Source: the human T2T-CHM13v2.0 reference genome, Homo sapiens
Assembly: GCF_009914755.1 (NCBI RefSeq)
Contig: NC_060925.1
Length of the DNA stretch: 64,000 nucleotides
Strand: one strand, 5' to 3'
Positions 11,670 to 11,820 of the stretch are shown here, piece after piece. Both the position numbers and the translations under genes were made by a program. The notes beneath the pieces are model-generated. The model had not been told where the DNA came from, searched no databases, and saw only the letters and a program-made list of their open reading frames with translations. The first letter of the stretch is position 1. Each line of letters begins with the position of its first letter.

Positions 11670-11820
<151 letters not shown>

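What the first reader, a model, noticed from the sequence alone, without database searches (positions are those of the whole stretch)
11772..11774. In-frame stop codon in CFAP141 exon 3 (predicted p.Gln41Ter): this allele looks like a null
Seen: splicing the four exons by their GT-AG sites gives a 101-codon frame that reads ...ATG GCA TTG GGC TAG AGA AGA AAC..., so codon 41 is TAG (A at + position 11774). The rest of the frame, all splice sites, the promoter and the polyA signal are intact, which suggests a recent lesion. Recalled: the reference protein has ...MALGQRRNPY... (CAG), and CFAP141 is a microtubule inner protein of motile-cilia doublets. Inference: the stop lies about 81 nt upstream of the last exon junction, so NMD is predicted. 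Skipping the 130-nt exon frameshifts, and UAG-A is a poor read-through context. Re-initiation at Met51 is the only obvious rescue.
Basis: partly seen in the sequence, partly recalled or inferred. Interest (0 to 1): 0.85.

Follow-up and report, generated by a model that had tools for sequence, protein, structure and literature searches.

The report
Nonsense allele of CFAP141 in CHM13
The T2T-CHM13 reference genome carries a one-base change that puts a stop codon at position 41 of the small cilia protein CFAP141, an ordinary kind of loss-of-function variant that mainly matters to people who use this reference to interpret variants.

Summary
Splicing the four RefSeq exons gives 101 codons plus the stop, and codon 41 is TAG (window 11772-11774, minus strand). 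The solved human CFAP141 chain has Gln there and matches the window at residues 12-40 and 42-101. Gln is present in 92 of 98 mammalian representatives. The exon is single-copy, non-repeat sequence, so an assembly error is unlikely. Reads were not available.

The stop removes about 60% of the protein, including its best-conserved part. That part carries the C-terminal conserved core (residues 67-88) of the published ELLEn module, which as a whole contains the NME7-binding regions. A loss-of-function allele is the best reading.

The stop is 81 nt upstream of the last junction, but also only 120 nt from the start codon. That places it in the start-proximal class, which usually escapes decay.

CHM13 is already reported to carry 210 putative loss-of-function differences from GRCh38. 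I could not open that list or any frequency table. This is an ordinary, probably catalogued variant of modest interest.

The parts
11772..11774 (-). Premature stop codon TAG, codon 41 of CFAP141 (CDS nt 121-123). The normal human protein has Gln here.
   Evidence: One search reports '1 TAG' inside the Pfam match. One search shows Q41 in PDB chain 7ung_A.
11691..11820 (-). CFAP141 exon 3 (130 nt, codons 25/26-68), which carries the stop. It is single-copy and lies outside masked repeats.
17485..17517 (-). Coding part of exon 1 (codons 1-11, start codon ATG at 17515-17517).
   Evidence: This part was not checked against the solved chain (one search found nothing).
16808..16848 (-). Exon 2 (codons 12-25, the last codon shared with exon 3). 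Residues 12-25 are identical to the solved human chain.
10659..10760 (-). Coding part of exon 4 (codons 69-101 plus the normal TGA). It is the most conserved part and is lost behind the premature stop.
11742..11744 (-). In-frame ATG of Met51, 27 nt after the stop (A at -3, C at +4). A candidate re-initiation site giving a 51-residue product.
   Evidence: Met at this column in 89 of 99 orthologue representatives.
11730..11732 (-). In-frame ATG of Met55, 39 nt after the stop, in the context ACCATGG. A candidate re-initiation site giving a 47-residue product.
   Evidence: Met in 86 of 99 representatives.
11747..11758 (-). Out-of-frame ATG followed by a 3-codon ORF and its stop, lying between the premature stop and Met51. 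It has a weak context (C at -3, C at +4).
   Evidence: coordinates read.
10338..10343 (-). AATAAA polyadenylation signal, 27 nt before the annotated transcript end.

Best explanation
The CHM13 haplotype carries a genuine single-nucleotide nonsense allele of CFAP141: CAG to TAG at CDS nt 121, Gln41 to stop. Shown: the base is in the assembly, the normal human protein has Gln there, and every other checked residue is unchanged. Inferred: translation from the normal start ends after 40 residues. This removes residues 41-101, which are the best-conserved part of the protein. They hold the C-terminal conserved core (residues 67-88) of the published ELLEn module; the paper says that module as a whole encompasses the regions that bind NME7. 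That helix would therefore be absent from the 40-residue product, so the allele is most likely a loss-of-function allele. Whether the mRNA is degraded is open, because two positional NMD rules point in opposite directions. The 50-55-nt rule says decay. The start-proximal rule says escape. If the mRNA survives, some re-initiation at Met51 or Met55 could make a 47-51-residue C-terminal fragment. That fragment would lack the N-terminal residues that the same paper says contact tubulin. The allele is one of the roughly 200 protein-truncating differences from GRCh38 already reported for this reference.
For: The stop codon and the otherwise intact frame. The Pfam CFAP141 model reads through exon 3 with one TAG. 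The solved human chain 7ung_A/8j07 (101 aa) has Q41 and is identical to the window at residues 12-40 and 42-101. Column 41 is Q in 92 of 98 mammalian cluster representatives that have a residue there (99 rows, one gapped). Residues 42-101 are more conserved than 1-40 (mean top-residue fraction 0.88 against 0.67). Pfam profile positions 28-86 of 86 lie after the stop. The published ELLEn syntax spans residues 3-88, and its conserved C-terminal core runs from 67 to 88. In the bovine structure residues 11-101 are modelled across A08-A11 and B01. The exon is single-copy at protein and DNA level and outside masked repeats. The assembly consensus is estimated at Q67-Q73, about one error per 10 Mb. 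[quoted passage not shown]
Against: No reads, no other human assembly and no variant database could be consulted. Neither the reality of the base in the cell line nor its population frequency was shown directly. No expression or protein data exist here for this allele. The start-proximal position and two downstream in-frame AUGs with A at -3, one in an optimal context, leave room for a stable mRNA and a C-terminal fragment, so 'null' is not proven. Residues 1-11 were not compared with the solved chain (one search found nothing). The PDB chain sequence reflects the deposited reference sequence, so it shows what the normal protein is, not which allele is commoner. The text seen does not say which residues of CFAP141 contact NME7, so placing that contact after the stop is my inference.
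Confidence: 0.85

Rival explanations
1. Hypomorph rather than null. The mRNA escapes NMD because the stop is start-proximal, and ribosomes re-initiate at Met51 or Met55. The resulting 47-51-residue fragment keeps the conserved C-terminal helix and still works at least partly.
For: The stop is 120 nt from the start codon, within the 150-nt start-proximal zone. Only 31.8% of such variants showed allelic imbalance, and gene-specific NMD-inactive zones of 22-100 codons have been reported. Met51 has A at -3, and Met55 sits in ACCATGG. Met51 is conserved in 89 of 99 representatives and Met55 in 86 of 99. The fragment would retain the C-terminal conserved core of the ELLEn syntax, residues 67-88.
Against: The AUGs lie only 27 and 39 nt after the stop, and established knowledge says short spacing disfavours re-initiation. 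A weak out-of-frame AUG intervenes. The 40-codon upstream ORF is longer than typical re-initiation-permissive uORFs; a median uORF of about 22 codons is cited. One search also reports that downstream AUGs do not predict NMD escape. The fragment lacks the N-terminal residues said to contact tubulin. There are no data for this allele.
Confidence: 0.15
2. The base is a consensus error of the assembly, and CHM13 really has CAG.
For: No reads could be inspected. The assembly paper corrected 993 small errors and notes residual errors in low-coverage regions.
Against: Consensus accuracy is Q67-Q73, about one error per 10 Mb. Of the corrected small errors, 52% were homopolymer indels, whereas this is a substitution in the non-repetitive context TCTCTAGCC. 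The exon is unique in the genome and outside masked repeats.
Confidence: 0.01
3. The change arose in the mole or during cell-line culture and is not a variant that segregates in human populations.
For: The assembly paper catalogued 3,901 small heterozygous variants that may have arisen during growth or passaging. [quoted passage not shown] The gene is not expected to be needed in a non-ciliated cell line (inference).
Against: 158 of the 210 CHM13 loss-of-function variants are seen in 1KGP, mostly at common frequencies. Culture-derived variants would normally be heterozygous, and the paper says half-coverage bubbles were resolved separately. Nothing here speaks directly to this site.
Confidence: 0.04
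4. Real transcripts avoid the stop by using other exon-3 boundaries or another isoform.
For: An AG at exon-3 nt 50-51, directly after the TAG, would keep the frame if used as an acceptor (read).
Against: RefSeq lists one transcript only. The solved human chain contains the residues of the whole exon. The candidate AG has no pyrimidine tract in front of it: 7 pyrimidines in the 19 preceding bases, counted by hand. It is also present in the normal allele. Skipping the exon frameshifts.
Confidence: 0.02

Closest known systems
Putative loss-of-function variants of T2T-CHM13 relative to GRCh38 (bioRxiv 10.1101/2021.07.12.452063; passages seen)
   Same: A protein-truncating single-base difference in a protein-coding gene of this reference. 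The paper reports 210 such variants in 189 genes and warns that they can mislead clinical interpretation.
Start-proximal nonsense variants that escape NMD (PMC12668785 and PMC12776119; passages seen)
   Same: The stop lies within 150 nt of the start codon, with in-frame AUGs downstream.
   Different: The open reading frame is so short (101 codons) that the same stop is also only 81 nt from the last junction. There are no expression data for this allele.
Loss of the related seam/outer-junction proteins CFAP53 and NME7 (PMC10973386; passages seen)
   Same: CFAP141 shares the ELLEn module with CFAP53, and both bind NME7 at the A-tubule seam.
   Different: That paper reports CFAP53 and NME7 as mutated in laterality defects. 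In the papers found, no disease or knockout phenotype is described for CFAP141. One preprint states that loss of single inner proteins gives mild defects in vertebrates.
Unitary pseudogenes (genes dead in a whole lineage)
   Same: A disabling stop in an otherwise conserved gene.
   Different: There is only one lesion. The splice sites and the rest of the frame are intact, and the full-length human protein has been modelled in solved structures. This is an allele, not a dead gene.

Membership tests
CFAP141 protein family (Pfam PF15104) | Match to the family profile above the curated cut-off (27 bits). | tested here: met
   Exon 4 scores 56.6 bits and residues 42-68 score 27.9 bits. In the genome scan exon 4 scores 54.8 bits and exon 3 scores 48.9 bits, both over the cut-off.
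CFAP141 protein family (Pfam PF15104) | Identity with the solved human CFAP141 chain. | tested here: met
   Residues 12-40 and 42-101 are identical to 7ung_A. Residue 41 is Q in the chain and a stop here. Residues 1-11 were not tested.
ELLEn module proteins (CFAP53, CFAP141, TCHP) | The published sequence syntax of the module. | tested here: met
   The syntax as printed in PMC10973386 matches residues 3-88 of the frame read with X at the stop. The stop falls inside the module.
NMD-triggering premature stop | [quoted passage not shown] | tested here: met
   81 nt.
NMD-triggering premature stop | Not within the first 150 nt (or 200 nt) of the coding sequence. | tested here: not met
   The stop is at CDS nt 121-123. 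The rule is as stated.
NMD-triggering premature stop | Not in an exon longer than about 400 nt. | tested here: met
   Exon 3 is 130 nt.
NMD-triggering premature stop | Observed loss of the mutant mRNA. | not testable with these tools
   No expression data were available.
Catalogued CHM13 loss-of-function variant or known population variant | Listed in the published CHM13 table, dbSNP, gnomAD or 1KGP. | not testable with these tools
   Supplements are closed and there is no variant database. Four full-text searches found no paper whose main text mentions this variant.
Unitary pseudogene | Several disabling lesions or other signs of long decay. | tested here: not met
   There is one stop only, all introns are GT..AG, and 89 of 89 checked residues are identical to the normal protein.

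The most novel reading that the evidence does not exclude
The allele is a common human polymorphism, like most CHM13 loss-of-function variants seen in 1KGP (median frequency 0.47). People homozygous for it would then be natural knockouts, or carriers of only a 47-51-residue re-initiated stub, of a seam/outer-junction inner protein related down to Chlamydomonas FAP141. That would show that CFAP141 is dispensable for human motile cilia, or that its C-terminal helix alone is enough.
Probability: 0.2. Interest if true: 0.5.

Novelty: already known. Interest (0 to 1): 0.3.

Why it matters
The effect is mostly practical. When T2T-CHM13 is the reference, the functional CAG allele appears as a 'stop-lost' variant, and people who carry the TAG allele show no difference at all. 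A truncating allele of a cilia gene is therefore invisible unless the reference's own loss-of-function sites are flagged. Annotation pipelines that project NM_001010979.3 onto CHM13 give a coding region with an internal stop. The biological interest depends on allele frequency. A common allele would give natural human knockouts of a conserved microtubule inner protein. That would feed the open question of how redundant these proteins are.

Tried and rejected
Literature. Full-text searches for C1orf189 (18 papers), CFAP141 (26 papers), CFAP141 with 'nonsense' (3 papers) and C1orf189 with 'stop' (4 papers) found no main text that mentions this variant. The passages I opened concern regions of homozygosity or deletions that include the gene, or its expression. 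I use them only to say that the gene lies in such regions. A search for FAP141 (7 papers) gave no knockout data.

Orthologues. The first protein search, with the exon-2 stretch, found nothing; 3 candidates were left out by the tool. No human or ape CFAP141 entry came back, where 12 candidates were left out. The closest relative seen is Chlorocebus, with Q at position 41.

Exon 1 against the PDB found nothing.

A cryptic in-frame acceptor just after the TAG was considered and rejected. It has no pyrimidine tract, and it is also present in the normal allele (read by hand).

Read-through was not tested.

The X-box scan of the window was not above chance: 8 matches against 5.4 expected, and 22 of 100 shuffles reached 8. 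'Promoter intact' therefore stays untested.

The 51-aa Mirounga entry that starts at the Met51 equivalent is an annotation variant, because the same species also has a 101-aa entry. It is not evidence for a natural short form.

Full report
What is in the sequence. On the minus strand the window reads ...ATG GCA TTG GGC TAG AGA AGA AAC.... Joining the RefSeq coding parts of CFAP141 (17485-17517, 16808-16848, 11691-11820, 10659-10760) gives 306 nt, which is 101 codons plus the normal TGA. Codon 41 is TAG (+ strand CTA at 11772-11774), and it is the only internal stop. All three introns are GT..AG. RefSeq has a single transcript here, NM_001010979.3, whose coding range simply spans the stop. An independent test agrees: a six-frame scan of the whole CHM13 genome with the Pfam CFAP141 profile found two matches, both in this gene. 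The exon-3 match (profile positions 10-55) was reported with '1 TAG' inside. As a control, 8 of 8 LTAP1 transcripts lying wholly in the window have no internal stop. The 57 TPM3 and UBAP2L transcripts run outside the window and were not tested.

What the normal gene looks like. The solved human chain 7ung_A (also in 8j07; 101 aa, 'Protein CFAP141') is identical to the window's translation at residues 12-25, 25-40, 42-68 and 69-101. An incidental alignment printed shows ...WQMALGQ with Q at position 41. The only difference seen is therefore Gln41 to stop. Residues 1-11 are too short to be matched and were not checked. After a first empty search, two further searches gave 99 mammalian cluster representatives. 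In a MAFFT alignment made in a script, column 41 is Q in 92 of the 98 rows that have a residue there (E 3; R, K and H 1 each; one row gapped). R42 and R43 are invariant in 98 of 98. The nearest relative returned, Chlorocebus, has Q. No human or ape entry was returned, and 12 candidates were left out by the tool. The part after the stop is the better conserved half: the mean top-residue fraction is 0.88 for residues 42-101 against 0.67 for 1-40. Exon 4 alone still matches the sea-urchin, Tetrahymena and Chlamydomonas FAP141 chains in the PDB.

Is the base real? I could not look at reads. Indirect evidence favours a real allele. The exon is single-copy at the protein level and at the DNA level (one match for 230 bases). 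It lies outside every masked repeat of the gene. The local context, TCTCTAGCC, is neither a homopolymer nor a CpG. The assembly paper (passages seen) estimates a consensus accuracy of Q67-Q73, about one error per 10 Mb, and says that 52% of the corrected small errors were homopolymer indels. The same paper lists 3,901 small heterozygous variants that may have arisen in the mole or in culture. That leaves a small chance that this change is not a population variant.

What it does to the message. [quoted passage not shown] But its first base is only 120 nt from the A of the start codon. Two recent papers (passages seen) state the start-proximal rule: stops within 150 nt (or about 200 nt) of the start often escape decay. 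In one data set only 31.8% of start-proximal nonsense variants showed allelic imbalance, against 74.5% of those classed as NMD-triggering. That classification scheme would put this stop in the start-proximal class. The other paper reports gene-specific NMD-inactive zones of 22 to about 100 codons, and finds that downstream AUGs do not predict their extent. The fate of the mRNA is therefore open, not predicted. The downstream in-frame AUGs are Met51 (27 nt after the stop; A at -3, C at +4) and Met55 (39 nt after the stop; ACCATGG). A weak out-of-frame AUG with a 3-codon ORF lies between the stop and Met51. Met51 and Met55 are conserved in 89 and 86 of 99 representatives. Skipping exon 3 shifts the frame and gives a 45-residue product. 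An in-frame AG directly after the TAG has no pyrimidine tract and exists in the normal allele too (read by hand). Read-through was not tested.

What is lost. CFAP141 is a filamentous microtubule inner protein of the A-tubule seam and outer-junction region. In the bovine structure residues 11-101 are modelled, contacting protofilaments A08-A11 and B01 with 48-nm periodicity (review table). In mouse sperm it forms an NME7/CFAP141/CFAP161 complex (printed 'CFP161' in the text) that anchors tektin filaments to the wall. A comparative study defines an approximately 70-residue 'ELLEn' module shared by CFAP53, CFAP141 and TCHP. This module contains the NME7-binding regions, and its N-terminal hydrophobic residues contact tubulin. 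The printed syntax of that module matches residues 3-88 of this frame, and its conserved C-terminal core (L67..R70..E81..E88) lies entirely after the stop. Pfam profile positions 28-86 of 86 also lie after the stop. A 40-residue N-terminal peptide would lack that conserved helix. A re-initiated 47-51-residue fragment would lack the tubulin-contacting N-terminus. Loss of function is the most likely outcome, and 'null' is plausible but not shown. The consequences for cilia are unknown. I found no knockout or disease report for CFAP141. One preprint remarks that loss of single inner proteins gives mild defects in vertebrates, and describes FAP141 as giving lateral support only.

How it compares with what is known. 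[quoted passage not shown] Of these, 158 were seen in 1KGP with a median allele frequency of 0.47, and the full list is in a supplementary table. A single-base nonsense change in a unique, syntenic, canonical coding exon is exactly what that screen detects, so this variant is very probably already listed. I could not open the table, nor dbSNP or gnomAD, and no main text that I could search mentions it. I therefore file it as already known in kind and almost certainly in fact. Its frequency is the one unknown that could raise its interest.

Verdict. The stop codon is real in the reference sequence and is a one-base change from a conserved Gln. It most likely inactivates this copy of CFAP141. 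The finding is a sound catch of an ordinary class of variant. Its main value is as a warning for variant interpretation on this reference. A modest biological upside exists if the allele proves to be common.

Noticed in passing
window 17591-17604 and 17659-17672: Two 14-mers, each one mismatch from an RFX-type X-box consensus (recalled from memory), lie about 50-130 bp upstream of the CFAP141 transcription start at 17543. That fits a motile-cilia gene. The window-wide count, 8 against 5.4 expected, is not above chance, and most other hits look Alu-derived.
   Followed up: partly
window 11775-11786 and 11706-11708 (codons 37-40 and 63 of CFAP141): The normal human protein has A38, G40 and K63, where 96 of 98, 68 of 98 and 85 of 99 mammalian representatives have T, S and N. 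Chlorocebus shares G40 and K63 but has T38. These are lineage-specific substitutions next to the stop and are not peculiar to CHM13 (the PDB chain has them).
   Followed up: partly
window 17544-17930 (gap between the LTAP1 3' end and the CFAP141 start): LTAP1 (formerly C1orf43) ends 387 bp upstream of the CFAP141 start on the same strand. Two sources name CFAP141 orthologues 'C1orf43' or 'C1orf43 homolog isoform X6' (P0031, P0040), which suggests read-through gene models in other species.
   Followed up: no
protein P0003: nr holds a 51-aa Mirounga angustirostris 'CFAP141' that begins exactly at the Met51 equivalent. The same species also has a 101-aa entry (P0074), so this looks like an annotation variant.
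   Followed up: yes
window 31369-31787: According to the supplied annotation, the first exons of LTAP1 (minus strand) and UBAP2L (plus strand) overlap head to head, which is a likely bidirectional promoter.
   Followed up: no
window 16911-16986 (intron 1 of CFAP141): The stop-free stretch upstream of exon 2 starts inside a masked repeat (16911-17217), and its translation looks like an Alu tail. This is why I restricted the protein search to residues 21-60.
   Followed up: no
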